Counted from the stretch's first letter, positions 122-53,427 are shown. The stretch: 53,427 bases of DNA from a virus (IMGVR_UViG_3300020045_001964:1-53427), one strand, 5' to 3'. Notes: generated by a model from the sequence alone, not told the origin. Program-made: numbers and translations.

Positions 122-2124
122 AAGAATCAATTGGCGGTTTGGCAACTGATGCGTTAACACCAATGCAAAAAGCATCTAACGATTTGGGAAATGCTTGGAA
201 TAAATTCACCGGGGAATTGTCTAATACGGGGCCGATAAAAGCCGTTAATGAATTTTTAACTAATTTATTAAATCGACTGACTGATATTTTAAATGCGCTT
301 AGTAACTATAAAGCACCCGCTTGGTTAGAAAAAATGGCGCGTGGTGGTTTGAATGGGATGGTTGCAGATTTAGTAAAAGGCAAAACTGAAAATACAGGCG
401 GTGCAACTGGTTCGTGGGATGCGCCAGCCCGTACTGCTGCCCAAACTATGCCCACAAAAACTAAAACTGATGCTGCTGGAATTACCGGAACTAAAAAAAC
501 TGATAAAGCAAATAAAGCATTTAATGATGAAATTAATGCACAAATTGAAGCATTACGCGGTGCTCAAAAAGTAAAAGAATTAATTGCTAGACAAACTGTA
601 GACCGCGTTACAAGTGAATACAATCGCGGAATGATTACCGAATTGGCAGCAATAAATACTATTGCTGAAGCCGATAAGGCTGCGTTACAGTCTGCAATTG
701 TTACAGCACAAGGTGAATTAGAATTAGCCAATAAAAAGAAAAACAATAAAAAAGAAATTGCAAATTTAAGTTCTAAAGTTGCCGAAGCTCAGGAAAAATA
801 TAACACTCGTGAATTAGCGCAAGGTTATACAGTTTTAGAGTTAGAATACAAAATTGCTGCTGAAAAAACTAAATTTTATAATGAATCTGCACGTATAACT
901 ATTGCCGAACTTGCAGATTTAGAAGCTAAAAACAAGGCTACTAAATTAGAAATAGAATCTATGGGTTTAATTGGTCAAGCGCTGGCTAATTTAACCGATA
1001 GGCGATACGCTGAAATAATAGCAAAACAACAAGAAAAAATTGCAGTTATGGAATTATTTTCAGCTTCTGGTGAAAATGTAACACAAATTCAATTAGAAAC
1101 TGACAAATTAAATCAATTAAAGATTGCTAGAGACTTGGCTTATAAAGTAAATACTACAAGTTCTAATGAAAGTAGACTATCTGGTTTAAATGCTGAAATT
1201 TTGGCAATGACTTCTTTAAATTCATTGACCGATCAACAAGCAGTTAAGGTTAATCAGTTAGGTTTGGAAGCTGCAAATTTACGATTACAAATGGGTGGTA
1301 CGGACCCATTTGATGCAATGTTAGTTTCATTGGGTAAGCTGACAGAAGGTTATAGTGGCTTATTATCTGGTCTAGGTGAAGGTTATGGTAATTTCTTTAA
1401 ATCGTTAGAAGATGGTTTTGCAAATAGCGTAGGTCGTGCAATTGTTTATTCTGAAAATTTAGGTGATGCTTTACGCAATGTTGCACAAAGTGCAGTTTCT
1501 GAATTAATTAGTTCTTTAGTTAAATTAGGCATTCAGTATGCAGCTAATGCATTATTGGGAAATACTATTGCGGCTACAGCTACCGCTACACAAACTGGAA
1601 TTTCAGTAGCTGCTGCCGCTACAACCGCTGGGGCCTGGGCACCTGCCGCTGCAATGGTTTCATTAGCTAGTTTTGGTGCAAATAGTGTACCTGCTATGGC
1701 TGGGATTGGAGCTACTTCAGCATTAACCGAAAGTTTAGCATTAGCTTCTTTAGCTGGTTTTAAAAGTGGTGGCTATACTGGGAGTGGGGGAATTAATGAG
1801 CCTATGGGCGTTGTTCATGGTAAAGAATTTGTGTTCGATGCTGCTGCAACGTCGCGCATAGGTGTGAGCAATCTACAAGCCCTACAAGATGGATCCACAT
1901 CGGTCGCAGCCAATAGTAAAGTGGTAGGTGTACCCACAGGTAGTCAAAGCGGTTCAAGCGCCTCTACGGGACAACAACAACCTCAAAATAATATCCGCGT
2001 GGTGAACGTGCTGGACCCTGCGCTGATAGGCGACTTTTTATCTACGCCTGCTGGTGAACAAGTATTCATGAATACTATTCGTAAAAACTCTAGCGGTATT
2101 AAACAAACTATTCAAAATGGCTAA
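1..2124 (+). CDS. Tail tape measure protein, C-terminal part
   Basis: Ala-rich helical sequence with C-terminal FKSGGYTG...GVVHGKEFV motif typical of TMPs; open frame from base 1. Confidence 0.9.
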   Translation, partial: GAIELDEKLGFLTTENFKTIKSLSDLGKTAEVQKFIIDKLKESIGGLATDALTPMQKASNDLGNAWNKFTGELSNTGPIKAVNEFLTNLLNRLTDILNALSNYKAPAWLEKMARGGLNGMVADLVKGKTENTGGATGSWDAPARTAAQTMPTKTKTDAAGITGTKKTDKANKAFNDEINAQIEALRGAQKVKELIARQTVDRVTSEYNRGMITELAAINTIAEADKAALQSAIVTAQGELELANKKKNNKKEIANLSSKVAEAQEKYNTRELAQGYTVLELEYKIAAEKTKFYNESARITIAELADLEAKNKATKLEIESMGLIGQALANLTDRRYAEIIAKQQEKIAVMELFSASGENVTQIQLETDKLNQLKIARDLAYKVNTTSSNESRLSGLNAEILAMTSLNSLTDQQAVKVNQLGLEAANLRLQMGGTDPFDAMLVSLGKLTEGYSGLLSGLGEGYGNFFKSLEDGFANSVGRAIVYSENLGDALRNVAQSAVSELISSLVKLGIQYAANALLGNTIAATATATQTGISVAAAATTAGAWAPAAAMVSLASFGANSVPAMAGIGATSALTESLALASLAGFKSGGYTGSGGINEPMGVVHGKEFVFDAAATSRIGVSNLQALQDGSTSVAANSKVVGVPTGSQSGSSASTGQQQPQNNIRVVNVLDPALIGDFLSTPAGEQVFMNTIRKNSSGIKQTIQNG

Positions 2125-3280
2125 AATTAATACTACATTATACGGAGAATTGGCATTTTTACCAGAAATTGCAGAAATACCAGTTACTGAAACATTAAGT
2201 TTTTTAACGGATTCGATTATTCATTATGACGGTACAGAGCAAAATATCCAACTACGCTCTAAGCCGCGCCAAAAATTTGAGTATTCGATACCTATAAAGT
2301 ATAAAGATAACGCAGATTTATTTAATACTTTATCTGGTGCGATACGCCAAAAATGGGCTGTGCCAAACTGGACAGACTTACAATCTGTGGGCACTATAAA
2401 CTCAGGTGATACCAGTATAGTTTGCAATACAGTAGATTATGATTTGCGCGATGATTCGTTAGCAATGATATTTACAAATTGTGATAATTATAAAGTAATT
2501 GAAATTACAAGTTTGACAAGTTCAAATATAACTTTATCTAGTGCTATTGCATCTAATATACGAAATGCTTATTTAGTACCTATTAGAATTGGTTATATTA
2601 ATGGCTCTGTATCACGTTCTATAAATGGTTATAATGGGAAATTAAATTTAAATTTTGAGGTATTGGATTTAAAAGAATTTACAACTTCAGCACCAACACA
2701 ATATTTATCTAACGATATTTATTATGATGAAAATTTGTTAAGCTCTAATTTTGCAGAAACTGATATTAGTAAACGCGAAGACATAATTGATTTTGATTTA
2801 GGTATAGTCGATAGACGTTCACCTTGGACAGCATCTAAATTTGGGCGAACTTACAGATCATTAACGGTATTGCCCACAGAAAGAACCAACTTTCGTAATT
2901 TTATCTTGCGCAGATATGGCAAATTTAGACCTTTTTGGATGCCATCGTTTGAAAATAACTTAATAATAAAAAATACAGGTGTTGTAGTTTCTACTTTAGT
3001 AACTTACCTAGATTCTTATATTGATTATGCAAACAATAGAATTCATGTTGCAATTCAATCTAACGGGTTGTGGTATCCTAGAATTATTTCATCACCCACT
3101 CAAACAGATTCGGACACAGTACAATATACGCTAGACACGGCATTAAATTTACCATCTGAATCTATAACTAGAGTTTCGTATTTAAGTTTATATAGATTGG
3201 ATGCTGACAATATAGAATTTAATTATAATTCGCCATTATCAGTAGAAACTTCAGTTAGAATTTTAGAAATACAATCATGA
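2117..3280 (+). CDS. Distal tail / tail-tip structural protein
   Basis: Position right after TMP; G.EQ.I.LR..PR and G...PFW.P motifs. Confidence 0.7.
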   Translation: MAKINTTLYGELAFLPEIAEIPVTETLSFLTDSIIHYDGTEQNIQLRSKPRQKFEYSIPIKYKDNADLFNTLSGAIRQKWAVPNWTDLQSVGTINSGDTSIVCNTVDYDLRDDSLAMIFTNCDNYKVIEITSLTSSNITLSSAIASNIRNAYLVPIRIGYINGSVSRSINGYNGKLNLNFEVLDLKEFTTSAPTQYLSNDIYYDENLLSSNFAETDISKREDIIDFDLGIVDRRSPWTASKFGRTYRSLTVLPTERTNFRNFILRRYGKFRPFWMPSFENNLIIKNTGVVVSTLVTYLDSYIDYANNRIHVAIQSNGLWYPRIISSPTQTDSDTVQYTLDTALNLPSESITRVSYLSLYRLDADNIEFNYNSPLSVETSVRILEIQS

Positions 3281-4063: not shown

Positions 4064-4279
4064 ATGTGGTGGTTTGTTGCTATATTTGTTGTTTCTTTGG
4101 TTGTCGCATATTCGATGCGACCGAAAAATCAATCTGTCAAACCTTCAGGTTTAGAAGATATTACAGTGCCCACAGCGGAAGATGGGCGGGAAATTCCTGT
4201 ATTATTCGGAACAAGAATAATCGAAGGTGCTAATTTAGTTTGGTATGGCGATTTAAAAACCGAGCCTATTAGAAAATGA
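4064..4279 (+). CDS. Small tail-assembly protein with N-terminal hydrophobic helix
   Basis: PTAEDGREIPVLFGT...N..WYGD motif; synteny. Confidence 0.75.
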   Translation: MWWFVAIFVVSLVVAYSMRPKNQSVKPSGLEDITVPTAEDGREIPVLFGTRIIEGANLVWYGDLKTEPIRK

Positions 4280-4473: not shown

Positions 4474-7400
4474 GAAAAAACAAACGGTCGGATATAAATA
4501 TTATTTAGGTCAACATTTAATATTATCACATGGCCCTATTGATAATGTTAGTGAAATTATCGCTGATGATAAAATCGCATTTGTAGCTACTAATTGGACT
4601 GGTGGTTCCATACAAGTAAATAGCCCTAATTTATTTGGTGGTGAAGATGGCGAAGGTGGCATATCTGGAAAATTTGATTTGGATGTGGGCGGTCCAACAC
4701 AAACAGCGAATTCTTATTTAGTTTCAAAATTATCGCCTGAATTAGTGCCTTCGTTTAGAGGTGTTGCAGGTGTTGTTTTAAATCAAGTTTATATAGGCAC
4801 ACAAGCTTATTTAAAAAAATTAGCATTTAAAGCTACTAGAATTCATAAAACAAAATCTGAAGGTTTAACGCAATGGTATGATGAAAAATCGGAACTGTTA
4901 TATGTTAATCCTAAAGGTGGCTTGTATACGTTTAGTTCGCTTACAGCACATATGACCCCTGGATATAATACTTCGGAAGCTGAGGTTGTATTATCCAATA
5001 ATGAAACAATCGCAATAGAAGTTTACGGGGGTTCCGCAAGTGCTTATTCATTATGGCCCGATGATGATGAAGTCCCTGTAGATAGAAAGCCGTGGCGTTT
5101 CACACTAAACGTTTCAAAAGACGGTGCGTTTCCAACTTCTTATTACCCAACAGAATTTGATACACCTACAGATGCAGCAAATGCAGCAAGCGTTGAGGGC
5201 CCAATAATATTAACCGGACCTGGGACATTTAAAGTTTATTTGTGGGATGGTGATGGTGAGGCATCTAACAATAGAGGTGCTTTAACATTTGGTATTGGTA
5301 TATCAAAAAATAGAGATATGAACCCTGCCCACATTATTCGGGAGTGTTTGACTAATCCTGATTGGGGTATGGGTTATCAAGATGCGGATATTGACGATGC
5401 GTCATTTACAGTTGCTGCTGATAAATTGTATGCTGAAACAATGGGTATGTCGCTATTGTGGAATCGTCAGAATACAATAGATGAATTTATTAGCGAAATA
5501 ACTAAGCATATTGATGCGTCAGTTTATGTTGATAAATCTACAGGTAAATTTAAATTAAAGCTTGTGCGGTTTGATTATAATGTTGATGATTTAATTTCAT
5601 TAAACCCTAGCAACATAAGCCACATATCTGATTTTACCCGCCCTAGTTTTGGTGAACTTACAAATTCTATAACAGTTAAATATTATGACGGTAATACCGG
5701 TAAAGATTCTTCAGTAACTATTCAAGATATTGCATTATCCCAAATGCAAGGTGTTACTATTAACACAACTGCGCAATATCCAGGTTTTACAAATGCTTCA
5801 ATCGCTGCTAGAGTTGCCCAACGAGATTTAAAAACTTTATCCACACCTATTGCATCATGCACAATTTATGCAAACCGTGATGCATACCCATTAAGTATTG
5901 GTGATGTATTTAAATTAACTTGGCCTGATTATGGTATTATCGATTTGGTAATGCGTGCCACAGCTTTAGCCTATGGTGATGGTAAATCTAATCAGGTTCG
6001 CATTAGCTGCACGGAAGATGTTTACGCATTGCCGGCTAACGCGATAATTGTGCCTACCCCCCCTGTATGGGTAGACCCAAGCGCAAAACCTGCCGTAGCT
6101 CAAAATAGGCTGCTCTATGAAGTTCCATATTTGGAAGCAATCCAGCAAAACGGGCAGGCTGCTGTAGATGCTGTAATTGCTATAGATCCTGAAATTGGAT
6201 ATGTAGGGTCCTCAGTCGGTCGGCCTAGCGGTTCTAGTTTATATGCAAATATGTATGTAAATTCAGGAGGTGGTTATACAAATAACGCAACTGTGGATTT
6301 TTCACCAACTGCAAAACTTGTTTCCGATATTGGAAAAATGACAACAAGCTTTAGCATATCTGAGACTGTTGATATCGCTAACGCTCCTGTGGGTACATGG
6401 TTTCAAATAGATAATGAATTAATGTCTATTGTTTCTTATGTTGACCCAGTATTAACTGTAAAACGTGGAATTTTAGATACCGTACCGGAAAATCATTCAA
6501 TAAATTCAGTTTTATATTTTTGGGATAATTACAGCGTTAATGATGAAACCCAATATGTTGATGGTGAAAGTTTAAATATTAAAATTACACCTGTAACCGG
6601 ACAAGGTGAATTACCATTATTATTGGCACCGGTAGACACGTTAGAAATTAAAGGTCGTTTAGCACGCCCTTACCCACCTGCAAATTTTAAAATTAATGAT
6701 GAATATTTTCCAAATACCGCAGAAGGTAGTTTAATATTAACATGGTCCCATAGAGATAGATCATTACAAACGAGCAATGTGTATTTGGACTTTACTGATA
6801 ATTCTATAGGGCCTGAGCCCGGTACATTATACAACGTAAGAGTTTATGAGAATGCATCAAATACTTTAGTATATTCTAATTTAGCGATATCAGGTTTGTC
6901 CGATAGCGTTACAGTTTCAGCAGGATTTACAGCTAGAGTTGAATTAGAAAGCGAACGATCCGCGCTAACCAGTTATCAAAAATTATCACATATTATCGAA
7001 TTAATATCTGTGTATTTTAATTTTAGCCCGCGTGGTTTAAATGTACCCACAGGTGCAGCCAAATTAGCAAAAACTATTTCCAGTTCTATTTATGCTATTC
7101 AGCAAAATATTTTAACTAGAATGTCTAATTCTGATTTATCTATAATTAACACAGTTACTTTAGATAATAACATAACCGGCTTGTCTGTTGACGGAACTTC
7201 AATTTTTGTTTCAGATAAAGGTACATCGTCTGTTTTAGGAAAATTATATAAATACTCTAATGATTTTTCTACAACATCAAATATAAATTTACCTACATAC
7301 GGTGATGGTAAAGGATTAACTTTTGTTGCAGGATCGTTATGGGTATCACTACCGACCACAGGTGTAATTCGTAGAATAAACCCATCAGATTTATCAACAG

Positions 7401-8983
7401 TTGCAAATGTTACAATTGCAGGTTTACCATGCCGACTTACAAATGATGGGACATACGTTTATTGCGTAGATAGCACAGCATCTAAAATTTATAAAATTGA
7501 TCCAGCTACAAATACAATAGTTTTAACTATAAATATTAGCAGTGCTCCTGTAGATGAAAGTGAAATTGCAGTGGCAAATAGTTTGGTGTTTGTATCTCAA
7601 GGTTTTGCGATAAGAGCTTACGATGTGAATACAGGTGCTGAATATTCATCTGGCCCTATATTTTTAGGCACATCTTATGTAAAATTTATACCTATATTTA
7701 CATCAGGTTCAAAAACTTTAGGTAAAAGTTCAATTACTTACGGTTCAAAAACTATATATGAATATTATGAAAGTTCTGATAATGGTCAGACTTTTAATAA
7801 ATTAGGTGCTGGTGATTATATAAGTTCATTGCATGAAGTAACACCATGCCTAACTGATGGAACTTACATTAGTTTTGAAATTGAAAAGTCTTTTGATTCA
7901 TCAAAAACTGATTTTTTTATAACTAAAGGTTTATTAGGTTCAGTACCAAGTTTAACAACTAGTAAATTTTCCAGACCTTACATTCCTGTAACCATAGGTT
8001 CGGACGGTTCTAAATTTATTGCAGTTACCACAGGAAATAATGTATATACGTCAACAGATGGTACAACTTGGACTTTAGTTGGAAACATTACTACCATAGG
8101 CGGTGTGTACACTCAAGATTTTGGTTCTAGTAATTATGGATTAGCCGTATCATTATTATGGGTAAACGACAGATGGTTTATCCGCGCTCCTAATGGGCTT
8201 CAACTATATTACACAACCGATGTCAATGCTGTATCAGGTTGGATATTATGTAATTTACCAATAAGTGTATTTCCACAGTTCAATACAATAGCAGTCCATA
8301 GTGGTAATCTTTTTGCTAGTGCTTTAAAACAAGAATCAGGAACCAACATACCTTTAATTATTAAATCTACTGATAATGGGTCTAACTGGACAACTGCAAT
8401 ATATCCATTAACTGGCGGTGTATCAAGTTTGTACAATGTCGGTGGTGATTTAATAGGCGTTGAATTTGGCTTCGTAGGTAAAACCGTGAAGTCTACAGAC
8501 GGCGGCACCACGTGGGTTGAAGTGTCTAATGGAATACCATTAGTTAAATTTGGAGAATATCCAGTTTTAGCCAATTCAAATATTTTAGTTACACAAGGTT
8601 TAACTTCTACACCTCCTGGGGAATCAGATCAAAAGTTAATTTATACATCAAACGGTACAACATTTGCCAATTCTGTGGGCATTGATATAAAAGCTTCTGC
8701 ATTAGTTATTAATTCAGTAAATACTATACTTGCAGTTCGTAATGGTTTAGATGTTACAGTTATTGATACTACTGATATGCATACTGTAGGATCATTAAAT
8801 ATTGAACAGCCTTTAGGATATACACATTTTTCAGAAATATCTTTAATTGATACCACCCGATTAATAGTTGATAACGGCCTAACCGTTGATTATTATGATA
8901 ATATGTCAACAGGTATTAGAATTATAGAAGACGGTAATACTCGAATTACTGAATCTGGCGATATTAGAATTTTAGAAAGTTAA
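4463..8983 (+). CDS. Central tail fibre / tip attachment protein (J-like) with C-terminal beta-propeller and BNR/Asp-box repeats
   Basis: MNPAHIIRECLT..WGMG motif; S-x-D-x-G-x-x-W/F repeats (ESSDNGQTF, KSTDNGSNW, KSTDGGTTW); 1506 aa. Confidence 0.85.
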   Translation: MGGKKKQTVGYKYYLGQHLILSHGPIDNVSEIIADDKIAFVATNWTGGSIQVNSPNLFGGEDGEGGISGKFDLDVGGPTQTANSYLVSKLSPELVPSFRGVAGVVLNQVYIGTQAYLKKLAFKATRIHKTKSEGLTQWYDEKSELLYVNPKGGLYTFSSLTAHMTPGYNTSEAEVVLSNNETIAIEVYGGSASAYSLWPDDDEVPVDRKPWRFTLNVSKDGAFPTSYYPTEFDTPTDAANAASVEGPIILTGPGTFKVYLWDGDGEASNNRGALTFGIGISKNRDMNPAHIIRECLTNPDWGMGYQDADIDDASFTVAADKLYAETMGMSLLWNRQNTIDEFISEITKHIDASVYVDKSTGKFKLKLVRFDYNVDDLISLNPSNISHISDFTRPSFGELTNSITVKYYDGNTGKDSSVTIQDIALSQMQGVTINTTAQYPGFTNASIAARVAQRDLKTLSTPIASCTIYANRDAYPLSIGDVFKLTWPDYGIIDLVMRATALAYGDGKSNQVRISCTEDVYALPANAIIVPTPPVWVDPSAKPAVAQNRLLYEVPYLEAIQQNGQAAVDAVIAIDPEIGYVGSSVGRPSGSSLYANMYVNSGGGYTNNATVDFSPTAKLVSDIGKMTTSFSISETVDIANAPVGTWFQIDNELMSIVSYVDPVLTVKRGILDTVPENHSINSVLYFWDNYSVNDETQYVDGESLNIKITPVTGQGELPLLLAPVDTLEIKGRLARPYPPANFKINDEYFPNTAEGSLILTWSHRDRSLQTSNVYLDFTDNSIGPEPGTLYNVRVYENASNTLVYSNLAISGLSDSVTVSAGFTARVELESERSALTSYQKLSHIIELISVYFNFSPRGLNVPTGAAKLAKTISSSIYAIQQNILTRMSNSDLSIINTVTLDNNITGLSVDGTSIFVSDKGTSSVLGKLYKYSNDFSTTSNINLPTYGDGKGLTFVAGSLWVSLPTTGVIRRINPSDLSTVANVTIAGLPCRLTNDGTYVYCVDSTASKIYKIDPATNTIVLTINISSAPVDESEIAVANSLVFVSQGFAIRAYDVNTGAEYSSGPIFLGTSYVKFIPIFTSGSKTLGKSSITYGSKTIYEYYESSDNGQTFNKLGAGDYISSLHEVTPCLTDGTYISFEIEKSFDSSKTDFFITKGLLGSVPSLTTSKFSRPYIPVTIGSDGSKFIAVTTGNNVYTSTDGTTWTLVGNITTIGGVYTQDFGSSNYGLAVSLLWVNDRWFIRAPNGLQLYYTTDVNAVSGWILCNLPISVFPQFNTIAVHSGNLFASALKQESGTNIPLIIKSTDNGSNWTTAIYPLTGGVSSLYNVGGDLIGVEFGFVGKTVKSTDGGTTWVEVSNGIPLVKFGEYPVLANSNILVTQGLTSTPPGESDQKLIYTSNGTTFANSVGIDIKASALVINSVNTILAVRNGLDVTVIDTTDMHTVGSLNIEQPLGYTHFSEISLIDTTRLIVDNGLTVDYYDNMSTGIRIIEDGNTRITESGDIRILES

Positions 8984-9474: not shown

Positions 9475-10187
9475 TGCTTTTAAATCCTTTCAGATTTGGT
9501 CCGACTGTACAAGACGAATATTTTACAAATGTAACATTGTTGTTACATGCTAATGGCACTAACGGATCAATAACTACTGTAGATTCGTCAAATTCTGCAA
9601 AAACTATATCTAGAATAGGTGGGCCTGTTTTAAGTACAGCACAAGCAAAATTTGGAAATGCGTCATTACTATTTACTAACGGTGGCGACGCATTTACAGC
9701 GCCGTCTAGTAGTGATTTTGATTTTGGTACTGGTGATTTTACTATAGAGTGTTGGATATATCCAACAACATCCGACACATCTATAGATAGAGGTTTAATA
9801 GTTCGTGATTCTATTGGCGGTACGCGAGGTTGGTTATTATATATTGCAAATTCAACAGGACATTTAAATTTTGCAGCATGGGGTGATTATCCAACCGCTG
9901 TTTGTAGTTCTACTGTAATACCAACTATAAATACTTGGAGTTTTATACAAGTCGTTAGAGAATCTGGTGCATTTATATTATATTTAAACGGTTCATCTAT
10001 TGCTTCAGATTCATCTAAACTTAGCTTAAATATAGGATCGTCGGGAACGCCACTTTGTATAGGTTCTCTATATGGGGTTTCTTCACCGACCCTTACTACA
10101 TTTATAGGTCACATTGATGATGTTCGTGTAACCAAGGGCATCGCACGCCCTGTAGCTATACCCACATTAGAATTTCCAAACAGCTAA
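9474..10187 (+). CDS. LamG/concanavalin-A-like lectin domain tail protein (receptor binding)
   Basis: LLLHANG..G, FGTGDFTIECWIY, GHIDDVRVTKG motifs. Confidence 0.85.
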   Translation: MLLNPFRFGPTVQDEYFTNVTLLLHANGTNGSITTVDSSNSAKTISRIGGPVLSTAQAKFGNASLLFTNGGDAFTAPSSSDFDFGTGDFTIECWIYPTTSDTSIDRGLIVRDSIGGTRGWLLYIANSTGHLNFAAWGDYPTAVCSSTVIPTINTWSFIQVVRESGAFILYLNGSSIASDSSKLSLNIGSSGTPLCIGSLYGVSSPTLTTFIGHIDDVRVTKGIARPVAIPTLEFPNS

Positions 10188-10381
10188 CCTGCATTACGCC
10201 AGATATTTAATTTGGCTATCAATTTATCATATTCTGTAACTTTTTGATTATGATGAATTGCCATAGCGCAGGCAAAGAAAAGGAGGTTTTGAGCCTCCTT
10301 TTTTGTTTTTGTAACCCATATTGCTGTAAGAATAGTTTCTACTCCTGAGCAACAAATTAATATAATTTCTAAATTAGTCAT
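10184..10381 (-). CDS. Hypothetical small hydrophobic protein (doubtful)
   Basis: Start overlaps the polymerase stop, but a terminator hairpin lies inside it. Confidence 0.3.
   Translation of the reverse strand: MTNLEIILICCSGVETILTAIWVTKTKKEAQNLLFFACAMAIHHNQKVTEYDKLIAKLNIWRNAG
10278..10304. terminator. Bidirectional intrinsic terminator between the convergent late and replication operons
   Basis: AAAAGGAGG-loop-CCTCCTTTTTT. Confidence 0.75.
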
Positions 10382-12476: not shown

Positions 12477-12477
12477 A

Positions 12478-14577: not shown

Positions 14578-14578
14578 A

Positions 14579-19670: not shown

Positions 19671-19682
19671 ATTCAGATAATA

Positions 19683-19711
19683 AAATACCCCGATATTTCT
19701 ACCGGGGCTTT
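19683..19711 (-). terminator. Intrinsic terminator after ssb
   Basis: Minus strand CCCCGGTAGAAATATCGGGG followed by TATTTTATT. Confidence 0.6.
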
Positions 19712-22790: not shown

Positions 22791-22793
22791 CTT

Positions 22794-42653: not shown

Positions 42654-42695
42654 ATATTTTCACAGTGCCCACAAATAGGTTATATACTCGCGGCT

Positions 42696-45224: not shown

Positions 45225-45266
45225 ACCTCTTAGGTGCTCACTGTGGGCATTTAAGAGGCTTATTTT
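45225..45266 (+). terminator. Long hairpin after MCP containing a CTGTGGGCA copy
   Basis: CCTCTTAGGTGCTCA-CTG-TGGGCATTTAAGAGG. Confidence 0.6.
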
Positions 45267-46261: not shown

Positions 46262-47428
46262 ATGAGTTTATTAGGGCATAGTAAAGATATTAGAAGTGCG
46301 GGTGCATTACCGGGTTCGGTGGATGGGGCTGGGAATTCGGGTGCAGGCGCGCCCAATGTCTCTAACTACTCGTCAGCCTACTTTGCCAAGTACCGCGCAG
46401 CGTTAGCGCTCACCCGCTTAGGTATCTCGGATACACCCGTGGCTTTTGTCGGGGATTCGACAGGGACCGGGCAGTGGGGTTTTGGTGGAGCATTCGCGAA
46501 CAACCGGCAGTATGCATATCCAGTAATCATGGCGGGCCTTTTGTCTGCACAAGGCATCCCCGCATCTTGCGAAGGTGTCTATTGCGACAACAACGTTACA
46601 AACCAAGGGTCCACGCTGCCCGCGTACGACCCACGAGTCAGTTTCAGCGGGTCCGCTACTGCCGCCCCTGGAGCGGGTTTCCCTGGGCGACTTTTGCAAA
46701 TGACTGCTGCTGGCACGATAACCCTGGCACCTGGCACGGCGTACGACACCATTGAACTGTACACCCCTACAAACGCAGGGCTAGGTTCGGCGACAGTTAA
46801 TAACGGTGGTGCAACACTTGGCACAATCAATTCCAATGGAACTCTTGCGCTGACAAAAACGACATACAGCGTGACATTAGGGTCAGCGCCTATCAATATT
46901 GTTTGGGCCGCTGGCGGGACTTTCTATAACTCCATCATCCGGCCCTATGTTGCTGCAAACAAAAAGGTAGTTCTCCACAATCTCAGCGGCTGCACCTACA
47001 AAGCTTCTGACCTGACAGATACCACACGCCCGTGGTATGGACTTGGCATGCTTGGACTGTTGGCCCCTAAGCTGACAGTGCTTAACATGACAATCAACGA
47101 CGCTACGGCTCAAACCCCGATTGCCACCTACAAGGCAAACATGCAAGGCATCATCGATGTGGCAAAAATCACGGGCGACGTGCTGATTGTTGTGGGCAAC
47201 CCCGCAAATATCACTCGCGCCACGGTTGCTGTGCAACAGATTTACGCCACGGCAGCAAAGGAACTTGCGGCGCTGAACAATTGCGTAGTGCTGGATTTGA
47301 TTGACCGTTGGGTGTCGTACGACTTTGTTCAGCCATTGGGCTATTACGGAGACACCGACGTGCATCCAAGCCGCATCGGCAGCGGAGATATTGCCAACGC
47401 AATCACTCGGCTGATTGCTCAGCCTTAA
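46262..47428 (+). CDS. SGNH/GDSL hydrolase domain virion protein
   Basis: FVGDST block I, TINDA block III, D..HPS block V; markedly GC-rich. Confidence 0.82.
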   Translation: MSLLGHSKDIRSAGALPGSVDGAGNSGAGAPNVSNYSSAYFAKYRAALALTRLGISDTPVAFVGDSTGTGQWGFGGAFANNRQYAYPVIMAGLLSAQGIPASCEGVYCDNNVTNQGSTLPAYDPRVSFSGSATAAPGAGFPGRLLQMTAAGTITLAPGTAYDTIELYTPTNAGLGSATVNNGGATLGTINSNGTLALTKTTYSVTLGSAPINIVWAAGGTFYNSIIRPYVAANKKVVLHNLSGCTYKASDLTDTTRPWYGLGMLGLLAPKLTVLNMTINDATAQTPIATYKANMQGIIDVAKITGDVLIVVGNPANITRATVAVQQIYATAAKELAALNNCVVLDLIDRWVSYDFVQPLGYYGDTDVHPSRIGSGDIANAITRLIAQP

Positions 47429-48016: not shown

Positions 48017-48394
48017 ATGGCCCAATTTGATAGACAAATTGCAACCGCATTACGGCTAATTAAAAAAAATGGTCAAAAGGTGCAATGGCGAAAAGAAGCC
48101 GCAAGTATTCCAGACCCATTAAAACCCTGGCTACCTGTGGGCACATCGCCAATAATTTACGAACCGTTTATTGTATTTCTATCGTTAGATTTACAAGGTA
48201 AAGAATTTTTATTTTCTTTAAATGGTTCTGAAGCTGTAACAGGTGCATATTACGGTTTAATGGGTAATGTAAGTTTTGAACCAAACACATTAGATATTGT
48301 TACGCGAGATGGTATTAAATTAGATATTAATAGTATCGATTTATTATCACCAAATGGTCAAAAGATTTTGTATACTATTATTTTTAATGGGTAA
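48017..48394 (+). CDS. Head closure / head-tail joining protein
   Basis: A.RLI.K.GQ, L.P.G...LY; synteny. Confidence 0.7.
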   Translation: MAQFDRQIATALRLIKKNGQKVQWRKEAASIPDPLKPWLPVGTSPIIYEPFIVFLSLDLQGKEFLFSLNGSEAVTGAYYGLMGNVSFEPNTLDIVTRDGIKLDINSIDLLSPNGQKILYTIIFNG

Positions 48395-48639: not shown

Positions 48640-49082
48640 TGATTGATAATTATTCTAGCGGTCGTAATGAAATATTTGCACAGTTAACCGCCGTATTACC
48701 TGCGCTTAATACGCTTTTAGGCTACACGCCGAATATTGTTTATCAGGGTGTAGAAACTGCCGCTAAAATGCCCACAGATAAGCTCTGGATGCGCATTTCT
48801 CAGCAAACCGTTATAGAGACTCAGGCTACATTACGGGACGATAATGGTAGGCGATACAGAACTGAGGGTTTAGTTTTTGTGCAAGTTTTTATACCAAAAA
48901 CAGAACCACAAAATTATGCGTTTGGTTTGTCATGCACCAATGTAATTAAAAATGCATATCGTGGTAAACAAACTAATGGCTGCATATGGTTTAGAAATGT
49001 TCGGATTCAAGAATTACCCGCTGAAATGGCATGGTTTAGGGTTAATGTTGTGGCTGAATATCAATATGACGAAATAGGATAA
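48639..49082 (+). CDS. Tail terminator protein
   Basis: W.R, G...VQ.F.P, WFRNVR, WF..NV...Y.YD. Confidence 0.75.
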   Translation: MIDNYSSGRNEIFAQLTAVLPALNTLLGYTPNIVYQGVETAAKMPTDKLWMRISQQTVIETQATLRDDNGRRYRTEGLVFVQVFIPKTEPQNYAFGLSCTNVIKNAYRGKQTNGCIWFRNVRIQELPAEMAWFRVNVVAEYQYDEIG

Positions 49083-49091: not shown

Positions 49092-50648
49092 ATGGTTTGC
49101 GCAATTAATAAAATTGATTCTAATATCACTGGTTTGGCCTATGCTGAAGAAGTTTGTTTAAAACAACTTCCGGTTTTAGGTACTGATGGTTTCGACCCTA
49201 CATGGTACGGTTTGGAACCTAACAGTTATTCTGATTTTGGTGGTGAAATCTCTACGGTGGCACGTTCACCTATTGACCCATCGCGCCAAAATAAAAAGGG
49301 TACTATTACTGATTTGGATGCGTCAGGTGGTTTCAATACCGACTTTACACAAACTAATTTAACGCGACTGTTGCAAGGTTTCTTTTTTGCCGATGCGCGT
49401 CAACCTGCCAGCACGCAAGGTTTGAACACTACCCAAATTCCTATTACTGGTGTTGTTTCATCTAGCAAAACTTATTCAGCCGCATCCGGCCTATCGGTTT
49501 TTGCAGTTTCTCAGCTTGTAAAGGCTACAGGTTTTAACACTGCTGCTAATAACGGTATTAAAACTGTCGCTACTGCTGCAACCGGTGCGATTACTGTAGC
49601 TGAAACTTTGGTCGATGAAGCAAGCCCGCCAGCAACTTCTAAGTTAGAGCGCGTAGGTTTTCAGTTTGCGTCTGCTGATATTAATATTGCAGTTGTCGGC
49701 GGTATCCCATCGCTAACTTCTACAGTTGCAACTTTTACAGCTTTGCCTGATTTATTCCCCGGTAAGTGGGTTTATTTGGGTGATGATGTAGCCGGTAATA
49801 AATTTGCAAATAACAATGGTTATGCACGTATTAAAACTATTGCGGCTAAATCGTTGACGTTTGACGATACAAGCTGGACCCCAGTTAATGAAACTGGGAC
49901 CGCCAAAACGATTCGTATCTATGTGGGCACATCCATTAAAAACGAATTGTTGCCAGCTTTGATTAAAAAGCGTAGCTATAATATTGAACGTCAATTAGGT
50001 TTAGGTGCATCAACTACACAAGCTGAATACTTAGAAGGTGCTGTTGCTAACGAATTCACTTTAAATATTCCACAGGCTGATAAACTTAATGCTGATTTAA
50101 CTTTTGTCGCAAGCGGTAATACACAACGTTCTGGCGATGTTGGAGATTTGATTAAAACCGGCGCTCGAGTTAGTTCTGCTGGTGAGTCTGCTTTTAACAC
50201 TTCGTCAAATATTTACCGCATGAAATTATCGGTAAATAGCACCACTAGTTCTAACGCTTCGTCTTTATTCGGTTATGCTACAGAAGCTAACGTTTCAGTT
50301 GCAAATGGTGTTAGCACTGACAAAGCAATCGGTGTTTTAGGTGGTTTTGATGTTAGCTTAGGTAATTTTGAAGTTAGCGGTTCTGTAACCGCTTATTTCA
50401 CTACAGTTGCTGCTGTTAAGGCGGTTCGTAATAATGCTGATGTTGGATTAAGCATTATTGGTGCAGCCGCTAATGCTGGATTCATCTTTGATATTCCATT
50501 ATTGGGCTTAGGTGGTGGTCGCGCTACGGTTGAAAAAGATACTGCTGTGATGTTGCCATTGGAAACTATGGGTGCGCAAAACGCCAATGGTTACACAATG
50601 CTTTATGACAATTTTCCATATCTGCCAACTGCCGCTATGCCAGTCTAA
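49092..50648 (+). CDS. Major tail tube protein
   Basis: KIDSN.TGL.YAEE, PNSYSDFGG; 518 aa; precedes chaperones. Confidence 0.85.
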   Translation: MVCAINKIDSNITGLAYAEEVCLKQLPVLGTDGFDPTWYGLEPNSYSDFGGEISTVARSPIDPSRQNKKGTITDLDASGGFNTDFTQTNLTRLLQGFFFADARQPASTQGLNTTQIPITGVVSSSKTYSAASGLSVFAVSQLVKATGFNTAANNGIKTVATAATGAITVAETLVDEASPPATSKLERVGFQFASADINIAVVGGIPSLTSTVATFTALPDLFPGKWVYLGDDVAGNKFANNNGYARIKTIAAKSLTFDDTSWTPVNETGTAKTIRIYVGTSIKNELLPALIKKRSYNIERQLGLGASTTQAEYLEGAVANEFTLNIPQADKLNADLTFVASGNTQRSGDVGDLIKTGARVSSAGESAFNTSSNIYRMKLSVNSTTSSNASSLFGYATEANVSVANGVSTDKAIGVLGGFDVSLGNFEVSGSVTAYFTTVAAVKAVRNNADVGLSIIGAAANAGFIFDIPLLGLGGGRATVEKDTAVMLPLETMGAQNANGYTMLYDNFPYLPTAAMPV

Positions 50649-50722: not shown

Positions 50723-51142
50723 ATGAGTTTATACAAAAATTGGTCTACCGATATTAACAAAGAAGTTAATGGTATTCCTGTAGAGTTTGAAGCTAATGAC
50801 GATGGGACAGTGCCCACATTCATCATCAGCCGCATGGGTGCTACCAATAAACCGTATTTGCGTGCATTGGAACAAGCCCAAAAACCGTATCTGCGTCAAA
50901 TTCAGTTAAAGACGATGGATAAGGATAAACATGAAAAATTGATTCTTGAAGTATTTGCAACCAATATTATTAAAGGTTGGTCTAATATTCAAGATGAAAA
51001 CGGTAATGTTTTGGCATATAGCAAAGAAAATGCAGTTAAGATTTTGACTGATTTGCCAGAAATTTATGATAACTTGTTTCAAGTTGCAATGTCTGCCGAT
51101 ATGTTCAAAAAAGACGAATTGGAAGAAAGCGCAAAAAACTAA
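50723..51142 (+). CDS. Tail assembly chaperone (G-like)
   Basis: After the tail tube gene; R.G..N..Y, GW; ends at slippery site. Confidence 0.82.
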   Translation: MSLYKNWSTDINKEVNGIPVEFEANDDGTVPTFIISRMGATNKPYLRALEQAQKPYLRQIQLKTMDKDKHEKLILEVFATNIIKGWSNIQDENGNVLAYSKENAVKILTDLPEIYDNLFQVAMSADMFKKDELEESAKN

Positions 51143-51896: not shown

Positions 51897-53427
51897 ATGG
51901 CTGACGAAAGTATTGTAATTGAGATTAAAGACGGTATTGATAGCGGCATTGCAGCCAAAATTAAACTAATTGCAGTTGAAGCTAGAATAACGCAAAAAGA
52001 TTTAGACGGTTTACAGAAAACTATAAATGGTTTAGGCGTTAGTAAACTTAATGCTGTCGGTGCGGCATTGGCTAGCACTTCAGCAGGTGCCTTAAAAGCT
52101 GCGCTGGCTAATGAAAAATTGGCTGTTGCACAACTTAAAACTGAGGTTGTCGCGCAAGCTGTAGCCCTTGCTGAAGCCAAAGTGGCGATTGCTGCTGCAC
52201 AGGTATCGGCTGCACAAGAAAAAGCTGCTAAGGCCACCGTACAGGCATCCACGGCTGCGCAGCAACTAGCCACGGAAACGCTACGGACTCAAAAGGCGCA
52301 AGATGCTGCCGCGCTGTCTGCTATTCGATTGGCTAACGCACAAAAACAACCTACAAGTACCACAGGCTCACAACTTTTAGATAATTTGCAGGAACAAGTT
52401 AGGCTTTATGGTAAAAGTTCTGACGAAATATTAAAGTATCGTGCTACGCAAGCTGGTGTACTTGCACAAGCAAGCCCGTTAATTTTACAACTACAAAATA
52501 TAAAGGCTGCACAAGAAGGTATTGCACAATCAGCGCGTGATGCAGCAAAAGCACAAAAAGAATTAGATGCTGCCGAATCAAATAAATCTTCTTTTATTAA
52601 TTCGTTAAAATCACAATCAGATGCAATTGGTAAAAGTAATGCTGATTTGTTAGAAATGAAAGCTGCAAAAATGGGGGTTACTTCACAAGCCGCCCCATTT
52701 ATAGCTAAATTGCGTGAAGAAGAAAATGCAATACGTTCAAACGGTAAACAATTTAACGCAGCAGGATTAAGCGTAAAACAATATAACGCTTCGATGCGTG
52801 GTGTACCTGCACAGATTACAGACATTGTAGTTTCGTTACAAGGTGGTCAAGCACCATTAACAGTATTGCTCCAACAAGGTGGACAATTAAAAGATATGTT
52901 TGGCGGTATTGGTCCTGCCGCAAAAGCGTTATCTGCTTCATTACTGGCAATGATTAATCCGTTTACGGTCGTTGCAGCCGCTATCGGCGTATTTCTATTT
53001 ACTGTGGGCAAAGTCGAATCTAGCTTGCGCGAACTTAACGGATTGGCTGCACAATTTTCAGCTACCGGGCGCGGTGATATTGATAATTCTTTTATTGTCC
53101 AATTGCGTAAAGAATTAGCTCTGTTGCCTGGAGTTTCTAAAACCGCCGCGACTGCAATTATTTCAGAGTTTGCCAATATTAGAAATATTGGCGGTGAAAA
53201 TTTAAAAGCTGCTGCCGGTACTGTTGCTGATTTGGCTGCTGCTTTAGGGACTGATTCGCCAAAAGCTGCAAAAATATTAGCTGAAGCATTTAAAGACCCC
53301 GTTAAAGGTGCTATAGAATTAGATGAAAAGTTAGGATTTTTAACTACTGAAAACTTTAAAACTATTAAAAGTTTAAGCGATTTGGGTAAAACTGCCGAAG
53401 TTCAAAAATTCATTATTGACAAGTTAA
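51897..53427 (+). CDS. Tail tape measure protein, N-terminal part (continues at 1..2124; about 1177 aa in total)
   Basis: ATG at 51897 after AGGA (MADESIVIEIKDG); lambda-type TMP block GVPAQITDIVVSLQGGQAPLTVLLQQGGQLKDMFGG; 470 codons to 53306 join frame 1 of window start; not in the ORF track because it lacks a stop. Confidence 0.9.
   Translation, partial: MADESIVIEIKDGIDSGIAAKIKLIAVEARITQKDLDGLQKTINGLGVSKLNAVGAALASTSAGALKAALANEKLAVAQLKTEVVAQAVALAEAKVAIAAAQVSAAQEKAAKATVQASTAAQQLATETLRTQKAQDAAALSAIRLANAQKQPTSTTGSQLLDNLQEQVRLYGKSSDEILKYRATQAGVLAQASPLILQLQNIKAAQEGIAQSARDAAKAQKELDAAESNKSSFINSLKSQSDAIGKSNADLLEMKAAKMGVTSQAAPFIAKLREEENAIRSNGKQFNAAGLSVKQYNASMRGVPAQITDIVVSLQGGQAPLTVLLQQGGQLKDMFGGIGPAAKALSASLLAMINPFTVVAAAIGVFLFTVGKVESSLRELNGLAAQFSATGRGDIDNSFIVQLRKELALLPGVSKTAATAIISEFANIRNIGGENLKAAAGTVADLAAALGTDSPKAAKILAEAFKDPVKGAIELDEKLGFLTTENFKTIKSLSDLGKTAEVQKFIIDKL
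53307..53427. repeat. 121-bp terminal overlap, copy of 1-121
   Basis: Identical to window start. Confidence 0.97.

What the first reader, a model, noticed from the sequence alone, without database searches (positions are those of the whole stretch)
449..53010. Genome-wide, frame-independent 9-mer CTGTGGGCA: a candidate dispersed DNA signal system
Seen: 23 exact copies by eye. Plus orientation: 2385, 8673, 13108, 18133, 19288, 24290, 29138, 30321, 31836, 36958, 40223, 41783, 45241, 48135, 53002. Reverse (TGCCCACAG): 2871, 4167, 12224, 18294, 20410, 23542, 25588, 48769. Eight more have the TGTGGGCA core (449, 5326, 10618, 39729, 42666, 47190, 49921, 50811) and four are CTGTGGGTA (1931, 6387, 7044, 35051). 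At about 36% GC (my estimate) a zero-order model gives about 0.1 expected exact copies. The motif is read in different frames and strands (VPT/LPT/MPT, PVGK/SVG, SLWA, AHS), so a shared peptide cannot explain it. It also occurs intergenically before ssb, the HTH-primase operon and the protease gene. It is spread fairly evenly, and I saw none inside the three inteins (about 3 kb of recently acquired DNA). Inference: DNA-level selection for a protein-binding or processing site. Options are a phage nucleoid/stoperator-type site, a nick site, a Chi-like protective site, or a DnaA-box mimic (TTGCCCACA vs canonical TTATCCACA) that could titrate host DnaA.
Basis: partly seen in the sequence, partly recalled or inferred. 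Interest (0 to 1): 0.9.

Follow-up and report, generated by a model that had tools for sequence, protein, structure and literature searches.

The report
Dispersed phage primase recognition motif
A nine-letter DNA word spread evenly over both strands of this phage genome is most likely the start signal its own primase needs to begin copying DNA, and closely related words mark a large group of phages that infect many different bacteria.

Summary
CTGTGGGCA occurs 23 times (15 +, 8 -) against 0.19 expected. The working motif is HTGTGGGYA, with 40 sites. Codon-preserving shuffles give 2.4-2.6 exact copies, and 21 of 35 positions where the protein sequence permits the word carry it.

The signal is not specific to this phage. 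The core TGTGGGCA is the top or near-top 8-mer in 8 of 8 cultured phages examined that share the closer form of this replication module, and 53 of 81 IMG/VR loci are significantly enriched for it. A sister clade (Queuovirinae, Beaumontvirinae, a Sphingomonas phage) carries TGTGGTCA or TGTGGTTA, 33-49 copies per genome.

The word tracks phage lineage, not host. Sites are evenly spaced, alternate between strands and are conserved between relatives.

The module encodes a primase-helicase whose N-terminal 300 residues match the NrS-1 PrimPol. That enzyme recognises 5'-GTGG-3' and 5'-TTTGGTTA-3' (PMC8718748).

Best reading (about 0.55): these are extended primase recognition sites distributed over both strands. 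The DnaA-mimic, host-Chi and stoperator readings are not supported. No paper describing the pattern was found in 7 of the 8 literature searches run.

The parts
2385..2393 (+). CTGTGGGCA exact copy
2871..2879 (-). CTGTGGGCA exact copy
4167..4175 (-). CTGTGGGCA exact copy
8673..8681 (+). CTGTGGGCA exact copy
12224..12232 (-). CTGTGGGCA exact copy
13108..13116 (+). CTGTGGGCA exact copy
18133..18141 (+). CTGTGGGCA exact copy, just outside the first helicase intein
18294..18302 (-). CTGTGGGCA exact copy
19288..19296 (+). CTGTGGGCA exact copy
20410..20418 (-). CTGTGGGCA exact copy, intergenic, 17 nt upstream of the ssb start
23542..23550 (-). CTGTGGGCA exact copy in the leader of the HTH-primase operon. 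Twenty-one of 71 related loci have a copy at the matching place (203-245 nt upstream of the primase start).
24290..24298 (+). CTGTGGGCA exact copy, in the primase gene
25588..25596 (-). CTGTGGGCA exact copy, in the primase gene; several relatives have a minus-strand copy at a similar offset
29138..29146 (+). CTGTGGGCA exact copy
30321..30329 (+). CTGTGGGCA exact copy
31836..31844 (+). CTGTGGGCA exact copy
36958..36966 (+). CTGTGGGCA exact copy
40223..40231 (+). CTGTGGGCA exact copy
41783..41791 (+). CTGTGGGCA exact copy
45241..45249 (+). CTGTGGGCA exact copy, intergenic
48135..48143 (+). CTGTGGGCA exact copy
48769..48777 (-). CTGTGGGCA exact copy
53002..53010 (+). CTGTGGGCA exact copy
449..457 (-). 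variant TTGTGGGCA
1931..1939 (-). variant CTGTGGGTA
5326..5334 (-). variant ATGTGGGCA
6387..6395 (+). variant CTGTGGGTA
7044..7052 (-). variant CTGTGGGTA
10159..10167 (-). variant ATGTGGGTA
10618..10626 (+). variant TTGTGGGCA
14179..14187 (-). variant ATGTGGGTA
29821..29829 (-). variant ATGTGGGTA, intergenic
30745..30753 (+). variant TTGTGGGTA, intergenic
35051..35059 (+). variant CTGTGGGTA
39729..39737 (-). variant ATGTGGGCA
42666..42674 (-). variant TTGTGGGCA, intergenic, before the DUF2213 gene
47190..47198 (+). variant TTGTGGGCA
49921..49929 (+). variant ATGTGGGCA
50811..50819 (-). variant ATGTGGGCA
23768..26137 (+). Primase-helicase, the proposed reader. Domains: AEP PrimPol fold (about aa 1-180), helix-bundle domain (about 199-309), AAA+/MCM-like helicase (about 332-680), C-terminal winged-helix-like domain (about 720-789).
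   Evidence: PHROG 3022, E 6e-230. Pfam NrS1-1_pol-like_HBD, E 3e-5, below the curated cut-off. PDB sequence hits to NrS-1 primase, E about 1e-21. Model pLDDT 89. Foldseek top six hits are NrS-1 N300, E 3e-14 to 1.5e-13.
23565..23768 (+). Small putative HTH gene whose end overlaps the primase start.
   Evidence: The upstream small proteins of relatives fall into several unrelated-looking families. No Pfam or PHROG hit.
10374..23405 (-). The co-inherited replication and recombination module: DNA polymerase, clamp-like factor, SNF2 helicase with two inteins, Cas4-type exonuclease, DUF3268, SSB, Sak4, DUF7173, DUF6948, MazG, plus two tRNAs.

Best explanation
The dispersed word is the extended recognition and start site of the phage's own primase-helicase. 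This enzyme has an NrS-1-type PrimPol with a helix-bundle domain (HBD), fused to an MCM-like helicase. I read the motif as follows (inference). The GTGG core is read in single-stranded template DNA by the HBD. The invariant T on its 5' side is the first templating base, so the primer would start with A. The 3' bases (GCA here, TCA or TTA in sister clades) extend the specificity. An 8-9-nt site is too rare by chance, about one per 65 kb per strand. Selection has therefore written it into both strands about every 2.4-3 kb, wherever the proteins tolerate it. This would let lagging-strand and restart priming occur anywhere on the phage chromosome, and hardly at all on host DNA. The copy in the leader of the HTH-primase operon may be the leading-strand start. 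What is shown: the enrichment, the spacing, the strand alternation, the conservation, the lineage-not-host tracking, and the homology of the primase to NrS-1 N300.
For: 1) Selection acts at the DNA level. There are 23 exact copies against 0.19 expected and 2.4-2.6 under codon shuffles. Twenty-one of 35 permitted positions are used. Twenty-one of 27 one-mismatch variants are absent.
2) The signal is a lineage property. Of 17 cultured phages examined that have a full-length homolog of this primase-helicase (24-55% identity), 16 have a TGTGG-type 8-mer as the top-scoring 8-mer or among the top four. Counts per genome: TGTGGGCA 11-18; TGTGGTCA 33-49; TGTGGTTA 47-48. One, RHEph04, has a weaker CTGTGG-type signal. 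In 81 IMG/VR loci around primase homologs there are 458 TGTGGGCA against 6 for the reversed control in 1,198,778 bp, and 62 of 81 loci are individually significant.
Phages of the same host carry different words. The window has a different head module, yet keeps the replication and tail modules and the word.
4) The signature is strand-specific. The spacing coefficient of variation (CV) is 0.49-0.71 in 13 of 13 genomes. Orientation alternates more often than with shuffled labels: MMDA13 38/49, p<2e-4; Kmi2C 22/28, p=6e-4; window 28/40, p=0.012. Fisher-combined p is 4e-16 for spacing and 3e-10 for alternation.
5) Purifying selection. KL1 against Ab26 (78% identity): 9 of 9 aligned sites kept, 0 of 72 motif nucleotides changed against 15.9 expected. 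slur01 against SD04: 39 of 43 sites kept, 5 of 344 changed against 31 expected.
6) Mechanistic precedent. Residues 10-202 match the NrS-1 primase by sequence (E about 1e-21). The top six Foldseek hits of the model are NrS-1 N300, with about 305-315 aligned columns. NrS-1 N300 recognises 5'-GTGG-3' or 5'-GTGA-3' (GTG critical) and 5'-TTTGGTTA-3' through its HBD, and starts at the first base upstream (PMC8718748, passages read). TTTGGTTA differs from the Seuratvirus word TGTGGTTA at 1 of 8 positions.
7) Other candidates are weaker. The upstream HTH is not conserved. Cas4 exonuclease and SSB gave no hit in Axy19, which keeps the motif. Three phages with only distant homologs of the polymerase (one also of the SNF2 helicase) and no primase hit show no dispersed word.
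Against: There is no biochemistry for any member of this group.
DNA polymerase, the clamp-like factor, the SNF2 helicase, Sak4 and the primase-helicase are each present in 16 of the 16 motif-bearing cultured phages in that comparison (Bhz55 was checked later, where the clamp-like factor gave no hit). Presence and absence therefore cannot single out the primase. The negative controls are distant relatives.
NrS-1 N300 needs only GTG, so an 8-9-nt requirement is an extrapolation.
NrS-1 itself has one TTTGGTTA and a cluster of 11 AAAGTGTAAC repeats at 17062-17370, that is, a classical origin and not dispersed sites.
The conserved copy next to the operon promoter, which is flipped in Loki, would also suit a duplex-DNA operator or loading site.
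Strand bias relative to the primase gene is 258:151 in the G-clade loci. By my tally it is reversed in the T-clade genomes, so no single replication polarity explains it.
Nineteen of 81 loci are not individually significant. Most are short, but L075 and L103 carry a different top word, ATAGGGG.
Phages with only N-terminal AEP homology (phi105, A2, PSA, Sasha, 7-7-1) have no dispersed word.
Confidence: 0.55

Rival explanations
1. The same primase-helicase reads the word, but as duplex DNA through its C-terminal winged-helix-like domain. The sites would then be dispersed helicase-loading sites or origin iterons rather than primer start sites.
For: The model shows a C-terminal helix-helix-helix-strand-strand domain at about aa 720-789, after an MCM-like AAA+ core. 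A conserved copy lies beside the promoter of the HTH-primase operon in 21 of 71 loci, with flipped orientation in Loki. NrS-1 has clustered inverted repeats at a presumptive origin. From memory: P4 alpha and SaPI Rep proteins bind origin iterons through C-terminal domains.
Against: Iterons of known systems are clustered; here the sites are single and evenly spread (CV 0.49-0.71). The alternation of orientation, meaning each strand is populated evenly on its own, is not expected for orientation-blind duplex binding. The GTGG core and the one-letter distance from the NrS-1 site, which was defined with the N300 fragment that lacks the helicase and C-terminus, point to the N-terminal head.
Confidence: 0.15
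2. A phage-encoded Chi-like self marker. The phage's own helicase, nuclease or recombination proteins (SNF2 helicase, Cas4-type exonuclease, Sak4) would recognise the word in single-stranded DNA and switch from degradation to recombination. Marked phage DNA would be spared and host DNA would not.
For: The word is G/T-rich, is needed on both strands at regular density, tracks phage lineage, and is co-inherited with the SNF2 helicase and Sak4 in 16 of 16 phages.
Against: No Cas4-exonuclease hit in Axy19, which keeps the motif. PEAT2 has a distant SNF2-helicase homolog but no dispersed word. I know of no precedent for sequence reading by these families (memory), whereas the primase homolog has a defined GTGG/TTTGGTTA specificity.
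Confidence: 0.08
3. Dispersed binding sites for another phage DNA-binding protein, in the manner of a stoperator, a nucleoid organiser or a regulator.
For: The sites are short, asymmetric and dispersed, with one copy in a promoter leader. Several small conserved proteins of unknown function sit in the module: DUF3268 zinc finger, DUF7173, DUF6948.
Against: There is no orientation with transcription (19 co-oriented, 16 anti). The adjacent HTH is not conserved while the core word is. DUF3268, DUF7173 and MazG are each missing from several motif-bearing phages. Strand alternation is unexplained by this reading.
Confidence: 0.08
4. A site for nicking or base modification of virion DNA.
For: Not excluded by sequence alone. 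The window carries a methyltransferase-like fragment at 12478-13026.
Against: Modification or nicking does not by itself select for more sites or for even spacing. The methyltransferase fragment gave no tblastn hit in any of the 20 genomes compared. From memory: T5-type nicks are confined to one strand, whereas these sites alternate between strands.
Confidence: 0.05
5. A host-factor site: a DnaA-box mimic, a host Chi or a DNA uptake sequence.
For: The reverse complement TGCCCACA shares CCACA with the DnaA box. The Seuratvirus word TGTGGTTAA is one letter from the relaxed box (consensus recalled from memory). One locus, L086, is enriched for TGTGGATA.
Against: Phages of the same host carry different words, and hosts from alpha-, beta- and gammaproteobacteria share the same word. 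Consensus boxes TTATNCACA number 0-4 per genome, and E. coli Chi occurs only 2-4 times in the three E. coli phages. The conserved 5' flank lies outside a DnaA box.
Confidence: 0.03

Closest known systems
NrS-1 PrimPol recognition sequences (5'-GTGG/GTGA-3' and 5'-TTTGGTTA-3'), read by the helix-bundle domain (PMC8718748)
   Same: The enzyme head is homologous by sequence (E about 1e-21) and by fold (Foldseek E about 1e-14). The word has a GTGG core. The NrS-1 8-nt site differs at one letter from the Seuratvirus word. A template base 5' of the core is available for initiation.
   Different: In NrS-1 the 8-mer occurs once, inside a clustered origin. Here the word is written 30-50 times across both strands, and no biochemistry exists.
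pRN1 ORF904 prim-pol, template motif GTG (cited in PMC8718748; details recalled)
   Same: An AEP primase with a helix-bundle domain that reads a GTG template motif.
   Different: The site is three letters long, frequent by chance, so there is no genome-wide enrichment. It is an archaeal plasmid enzyme.
T7 gp4 primase sites 5'-(G/T)2GTC-3' (abstract of PMC12839067 seen in the listing)
   Same: Sequence-specific priming sites used for lagging-strand synthesis across a phage genome.
   Different: The primase fold is unrelated (DnaG/Toprim type, recalled). The sites are 5 nt and common by chance, so they need no selection.
Origin iterons of primase-helicase replicons (phage P4 alpha, SaPI Rep; recalled) and the NrS-1 repeat cluster
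   Same: Short asymmetric words in both orientations tied to a primase-helicase. One copy here sits beside the enzyme's own operon.
   Different: Iterons are clustered within a few hundred bp at one origin. Here the sites are single and spread over the whole chromosome.
Stoperators of cluster A mycobacteriophages (recalled)
   Same: Twenty to forty asymmetric short sites dispersed through coding DNA of a phage genome.
   Different: Stoperators are read by the immunity repressor of temperate phages and are oriented with transcription. Here there is no such orientation, and the neighbouring HTH is not conserved.
Chi sites (recalled)
   Same: G/T-rich 8-mers read strand-specifically, enriched and spread through a genome.
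   Different: Chi is set by the host RecBCD/AddAB. This word is set by phage lineage and is the same across hosts of three proteobacterial classes.

Membership tests
PrimPol (AEP + helix-bundle domain) primase recognition site | The genome encodes an AEP PrimPol with a helix-bundle domain | tested here: met
   PDB sequence hits to the NrS-1 primase, E about 1e-21. The model has a helical bundle at aa 199-309. The Foldseek top six hits are NrS-1 N300, about 305-315 aligned columns. The Pfam HBD hit (24.2 bits) is below the 27.9-bit cut-off.
PrimPol (AEP + helix-bundle domain) primase recognition site | The site contains the GTG(G/A) core with a template base 5' of it | tested here: met
   T-GTGG is invariant in the TGTGG-type words (TGTGGGCA, TGTGGTCA, TGTGGTTA) found in all 17 genomes with a full-length primase homolog. 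The known specificity comes from PMC8718748.
PrimPol (AEP + helix-bundle domain) primase recognition site | The word co-varies with the primase lineage, not with the host | tested here: met
   Primases closer to the window's (32-55% identity) go with TGTGGGCA. The 24-33% clade goes with TGTGGTCA or TGTGGTTA. Phages of the same host carry different words.
PrimPol (AEP + helix-bundle domain) primase recognition site | Primer synthesis starts at the site | not testable with these tools
   Needs a priming assay or mapping of primer 5' ends.
Origin iterons of a primase-helicase | Several copies clustered at one origin | tested here: not met
   The window's sites are dispersed (CV 0.69, minimum spacing 160 bp). 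NrS-1, by contrast, has 11 repeats within about 300 bp.
Stoperators | Sites oriented with the direction of transcription | tested here: not met
   19 co-oriented against 16 anti-oriented.
Stoperators | Read by a conserved immunity repressor | tested here: inconclusive
   The only adjacent HTH varies between unrelated-looking families. Not every small ORF of the window was searched for a repressor or integrase.
Chi / DNA uptake sequence | The sequence is set by the host and shared by that host's phages | tested here: not met
   Phages of the same host carry different words, and different hosts share the same word. Host genomes themselves were not counted.
DnaA box | Match to TTATNCACA (consensus recalled) | tested here: not met
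   TGCCCACA departs at two box positions. Only 4 consensus boxes occur in the window, and 0-4 in the other genomes.
T5-type nick sites | Single-strand interruptions at the word in virion DNA | not testable with these tools
   No virion DNA data were available.

The most novel reading that the evidence does not exclude
A large cross-host phage supergroup carries a chromosome-wide 'priming barcode'. The group includes Septimatrevirus, Lokivirus, Titanvirus, Kilunavirus, Queuovirinae, Beaumontvirinae and many uncultured relatives. In each, a lineage-specific 8-9-mer (T-GTGG-GCA, -TCA or -TTA) is written alternately on the two strands about every 2.5 kb. The phage's PrimPol-helicase strictly needs this word to start DNA chains. 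Replication would then have no single origin, would be confined to self DNA, and the word variants would define replicon specificity groups that co-evolve with the primase.
Probability: 0.4. Interest if true: 0.9.

Novelty: new variant of a known kind. Interest (0 to 1): 0.85.

Why it matters
If the reading holds, it shows how a sequence-specific primase shapes a whole chromosome. Dozens of codon choices, and some amino-acid choices, would be fixed to keep a start signal on each strand every few kilobases.

It would give a simple sequence test for a replication system shared by many phages now under study as therapy candidates, including phages of Pseudomonas, Acinetobacter, Stenotrophomonas, Klebsiella and Xanthomonas.

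It would explain self-restricted replication without a classical origin. It would also provide a natural series of enzyme-and-word pairs (GCA, TCA, TTA) for studying how helix-bundle domains read DNA.

In practice, the word density flags recently acquired DNA: here, the inteins sit in the largest site-free gap. It also predicts which synonymous recodings of such phages would harm replication.

Tried and rejected
Near-identity search of 12.8 kb against cultured phages found no match.

Portal-based relatives (phiEt88, Meifeng) share only the head module and have no dispersed word.

The search for related loci with single proteins gave one locus each. An alignment query was needed.

Host identification was not achieved. 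The one search for sequencing runs gave three runs with small shares (0.06-0.07) that I did not lay, so I draw no habitat or host inference.

A single replication polarity: the strand bias is not consistent between clades (my tally).

Promoter (-10-like) reading of the 5' flank TAWTGT: it fits the cultured G-clade phages, but the window has C at -1 and no A preference at -2, and most sites are intragenic on both strands. Dropped.

Literature: string searches for TGTGGGCA, TGCCCACA, TGTGGTCA and TGTGGTTA, three of them combined with 'bacteriophage' (two with a further word), returned only primers and unrelated papers. A concept search returned the NrS-1 paper and nothing on genome-wide enrichment. 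The Loki genome paper does not contain 'TGTGGG' (find mode). Most subscription journals and all supplements are outside this library. The supplementary figures S3-S6 of PMC8718748, which hold part of the site-mapping data, were not seen.

The metagenome contigs and genome-contig scans, complex prediction, read laying and the protein-atlas search were not used.

Full report
**The window.** It is a complete IMG/VR virus record of 53,427 bp with a 121-bp terminal repeat, classed 100% complete. GC is 0.37.

Genes on the plus strand run from about 23.5 kb through the junction to 10.2 kb. A minus-strand block at 10.2-23.4 kb holds the replication genes:
- DNA polymerase
- clamp-like factor
- SNF2 helicase with two inteins
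- Cas4-type exonuclease
- DUF3268
- SSB
- Sak4
- two tRNAs
- DUF7173, DUF6948 and MazG

Opposite this block, on the plus strand, lies a small HTH gene (23565-23768) whose end overlaps the start of a 789-aa primase-helicase (23768-26137).

The tail genes resemble those of Pseudomonas phage Ab26; the major tail protein is 66% identical. The head genes (terminase with an intein, portal, capsid region) come from another lineage.

- All 23 coordinates are exact, against 0.19 expected. The 8-mer core occurs 31 times against 1.72 expected.
- The word is the commonest 9-mer in the genome.
- The flanks carry no longer conserved sequence, apart from avoidance of G at positions -3 to -1 and +1.
- Of the 27 single-mismatch variants, 21 are absent. 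Only C>A/T at position 1 and C>T at position 8 recur, which gives HTGTGGGYA and 40 sites.
- Shuffling synonymous codons within genes or genome-wide, which keeps all proteins and the codon usage, gives 2.4-2.6 exact copies (maximum 6 in 300 shuffles) and 7.6 degenerate sites (maximum 13).
- Of the 35 places where the encoded peptide allows the exact word by synonymous choice, 21 carry it.
- Sites fall in five frame and strand classes, 19 in the gene sense and 16 antisense.

**The signal is not private to this phage.** The primase-helicase and the DNA polymerase are 45-53% identical to those of a large set of cultured siphoviruses, and the module is syntenic in Ab26 and Loki.

TGTGGGCA is the top or near-top 8-mer in all eight cultured members examined from the clade that carries TGTGGGCA (the G-clade):

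| Phage | Copies of TGTGGGCA |
|---|---|
| Ab26 | 18 |
| Loki | 13 |
| RcTitan | 17 |
| KL1 | 18 |
| Kmi2C | 12 (plus 15 TGTGGGCT) |
| Pfeifenkraut | 18 |
| FtMidnight | 16 |
| Axy19 | 11 (CTGTGGGC 18) |

The reversed control gave 0 in the five genomes where it was counted.

In 81 IMG/VR loci fetched around primase homologs there are 458 copies, against 6 of the reversed word, in 1,198,778 bp. Sixty-two loci are individually significant; most of the remainder are short.

Genomes whose primase is only 24-33% identical (the T-clade) carry a sister word:

| Phage | Word and copies |
|---|---|
| Quinobequin-P09 | TGTGGTCA 36 |
| MMDA13 | TGTGGTCA 49 |
| 20Sep420 | TGTGGTCA 42 |
| pVco-14 | TGTGGTCA 35 |
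| SP8 | TGTGGTCA 33 |
| Bhz55 | TGTGGTCA 41 |
| slur01 | TGTGGTTA 47 |
| SD04 | TGTGGTTA 48 |

RHEph04 shows only a weaker CTGTGG-type enrichment.

Twelve comparison genomes show no dispersed word of this kind:
- portal-only relatives phiEt88 and Meifeng
- N-terminal-only primase matches phi105, A2, PSA, Sasha, 7-7-1 and NrS-1
- C-terminal-only match Bigdog
- distant polymerase-only matches MW202897, DELF1 and PEAT2

**Host factor or phage factor?** The word follows the phage lineage within a single host.
- P. aeruginosa: Ab26 has 18 TGTGGGCA and 0 TGTGGTCA; Quinobequin has 5 and 36; 20Sep420 has 2 and 42.
- E. coli: FtMidnight has 16 TGTGGGCA; slur01 has 47 TGTGGTTA; SP8 has 33 TGTGGTCA.

The same word also serves hosts from three proteobacterial classes. 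Consensus DnaA boxes number 0-4 per genome, and E. coli Chi occurs only 2-4 times in the three E. coli phages. This removes the DnaA-mimic, host-Chi and uptake-sequence readings.

**How the sites are arranged.** Spacing is more even than random in 13 of 13 genomes (CV 0.49-0.71; Fisher-combined p about 4e-16; the genomes are not fully independent).

Orientation alternates more often than with shuffled labels: MMDA13 38 of 49 adjacent pairs, Kmi2C 22 of 28, FtMidnight 14 of 16. The combined p is about 3e-10.

In the window the 40 sites give 28 switches (p=0.012), an overall CV of 0.69 (p=0.009) and a plus-strand CV of 0.51 (p=0.0006).

Two interleaved regular series are what one expects if each strand separately needs a site every few kilobases. 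This points to strand-specific reading that is needed on both strands.

Sites are also protected in evolution. In KL1 against Ab26, 9 of 9 aligned sites are kept at 78% background identity. In slur01 against SD04, 39 of 43 are kept, with 5 changed motif letters against 31 expected.

The largest site-free stretch of the window is the helicase gene that holds two inteins. This fits recent arrival of DNA that does not yet carry the word.

**Who reads it?** The small HTH next to the primase is not a good candidate. In relatives the corresponding protein belongs to several unrelated-looking families while the core word never changes, and a separate palindrome sits at the operon promoter.

Within the module, the polymerase, clamp-like factor, SNF2 helicase, Sak4 and primase-helicase are each present in 16 of the 16 motif-bearing cultured phages in that comparison. 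The Cas4 exonuclease is present in 15 and SSB in 14. Presence and absence therefore cannot decide the question.

Prior knowledge can. The primase-helicase's first 200 residues match the NrS-1 primase by sequence (E about 1e-21). An AlphaFold model (pLDDT 89) shows an AEP fold, a helical bundle at 199-309, an MCM-like AAA+ core and a C-terminal winged-helix-like domain. The six best Foldseek hits are NrS-1 N300, E 3e-14 to 1.5e-13 over about 305-315 aligned columns.

The passages I read of PMC8718748 state three things about NrS-1 N300:
- It recognises 5'-TTTGGTTA-3', and more efficiently 5'-GTGG-3' or 5'-GTGA-3', with GTG critical.
- The helix-bundle domain binds the recognition site.

The words found here are T-GTGG-GCA, T-GTGG-TCA and T-GTGG-TTA, and the last is one letter from the NrS-1 8-mer. 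I therefore read the word as an extended primase recognition site. In this reading, the invariant T is the first templating base. This last point is inference.

**Points that do not fit neatly.**
- NrS-1 itself has a single TTTGGTTA, which lies inside a cluster of 11 AAAGTGTAAC repeats at 17062-17370. That is a classical origin, not dispersed sites.
- A conserved copy lies 203-245 nt upstream of the primase start in 21 of 71 dereplicated loci, downstream of a recognisable promoter. The window's copy at 23542 is one of these. In Loki the copy is flipped. This would also suit a duplex operator or a loading site, perhaps read by the C-terminal domain of the same enzyme.
- Strand bias relative to the primase gene is 258:151 in the G-clade loci. 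By my tally it is reversed in the T-clade genomes.
- A few loci with the primase carry other top words: ATAGGGG in L075 and L103, TGTGGATA in L086, TGTGGACA in L080.

**Comparison with what is known.** Sequence-specific priming is well known. Examples are T7 gp4, the pRN1 prim-pol and NrS-1. Clustered iterons for primase-helicases, stoperators and Chi are also known.

I could not find any description of a primase-type word written evenly and alternately over both strands of whole phage chromosomes and conserved across a supergroup. Eight of the ten allowed literature searches were run; five searched the motif strings and one the concept. The Loki genome paper does not contain the word. The library lacks most subscription journals and all supplements, so prior description cannot be excluded.

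**Verdict.** The best mechanism is dispersed PrimPol recognition sites (about 0.55). Duplex loading sites of the same enzyme are the main rival (about 0.15). Host-factor readings are essentially excluded. I class it as a new variant of a known kind and rate its interest as high.

Noticed in passing
window 22142-22331 (ORF 22123-22389, minus strand): GCCAGAGCCA occurs 18 times as a tandem hexamer-based repeat. It encodes a Gly-Ser-rich stretch in a small ORF of the replication module, and it is the second most over-represented word in the genome.
   Followed up: partly
window 14579-18235 (-) and 37888-40401 (+): Three intein-like insertions with Hint and LAGLIDADG/homing-endonuclease domains, two in the SNF2 helicase and one in the large terminase. 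None carries the motif. The helicase gene is the largest motif-free gap (3,954 bp).
   Followed up: partly
L152-L153 (Nitratiruptor phage NrS-1, AB746912) 17062-17370: Eleven AAAGTGTAAC(C) repeats in both orientations are clustered within about 300 bp. The single genomic copy of the published primase site TTTGGTTA overlaps one of them, and a TGTGGTCA lies at the edge. This looks like the phage's origin.
   Followed up: partly
L004 (Ab26) about 33040-33060, and the matching places in L030-L034, L042, L051, L079, L089: A palindrome of the type TGTCAAC-N4-GTTGACA overlaps the -35 region of the HTH-primase operon promoter. It is probably the operator of the small HTH protein and is distinct from the dispersed word.
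   Followed up: no
window 37888-47428 compared with 47507-2124 and 10374-26137: Mosaic genome. The head module resembles phiEt88 and RHEph04-type phages. The tail and replication modules resemble Septimatrevirus-like siphoviruses.
   Followed up: partly
L001 (IMG/VR contig, portal 41% identical to the window's): This contig carries the sister word, about 8 copies of (CA)GTGTGGTCA(C) in 18 kb. A relative of the window's head module therefore sits in a T-clade genome.
   Followed up: partly
L075, L103, L086, L080, L083: Loci with a homologous primase but other top words: ATAGGGG (9-10 copies), TGTGGATA (6, DnaA-box-like), TGTGGACA (6) and AAAGTGATA (8-9). These may be further specificity variants.
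   Followed up: no
window 12478-13026 (-): A 182-aa fragment resembling an N6-adenine DNA methyltransferase (PHROG 799, E 3e-48; Pfam hits only weak). It overlaps the annotated start of the polymerase ORF and gave no hit in any of the 20 genomes compared.
   Followed up: no
window 21386-21556 (-): tRNA-Met(CAT) and tRNA-Leu(TAA) genes inside the replication module.
   Followed up: no
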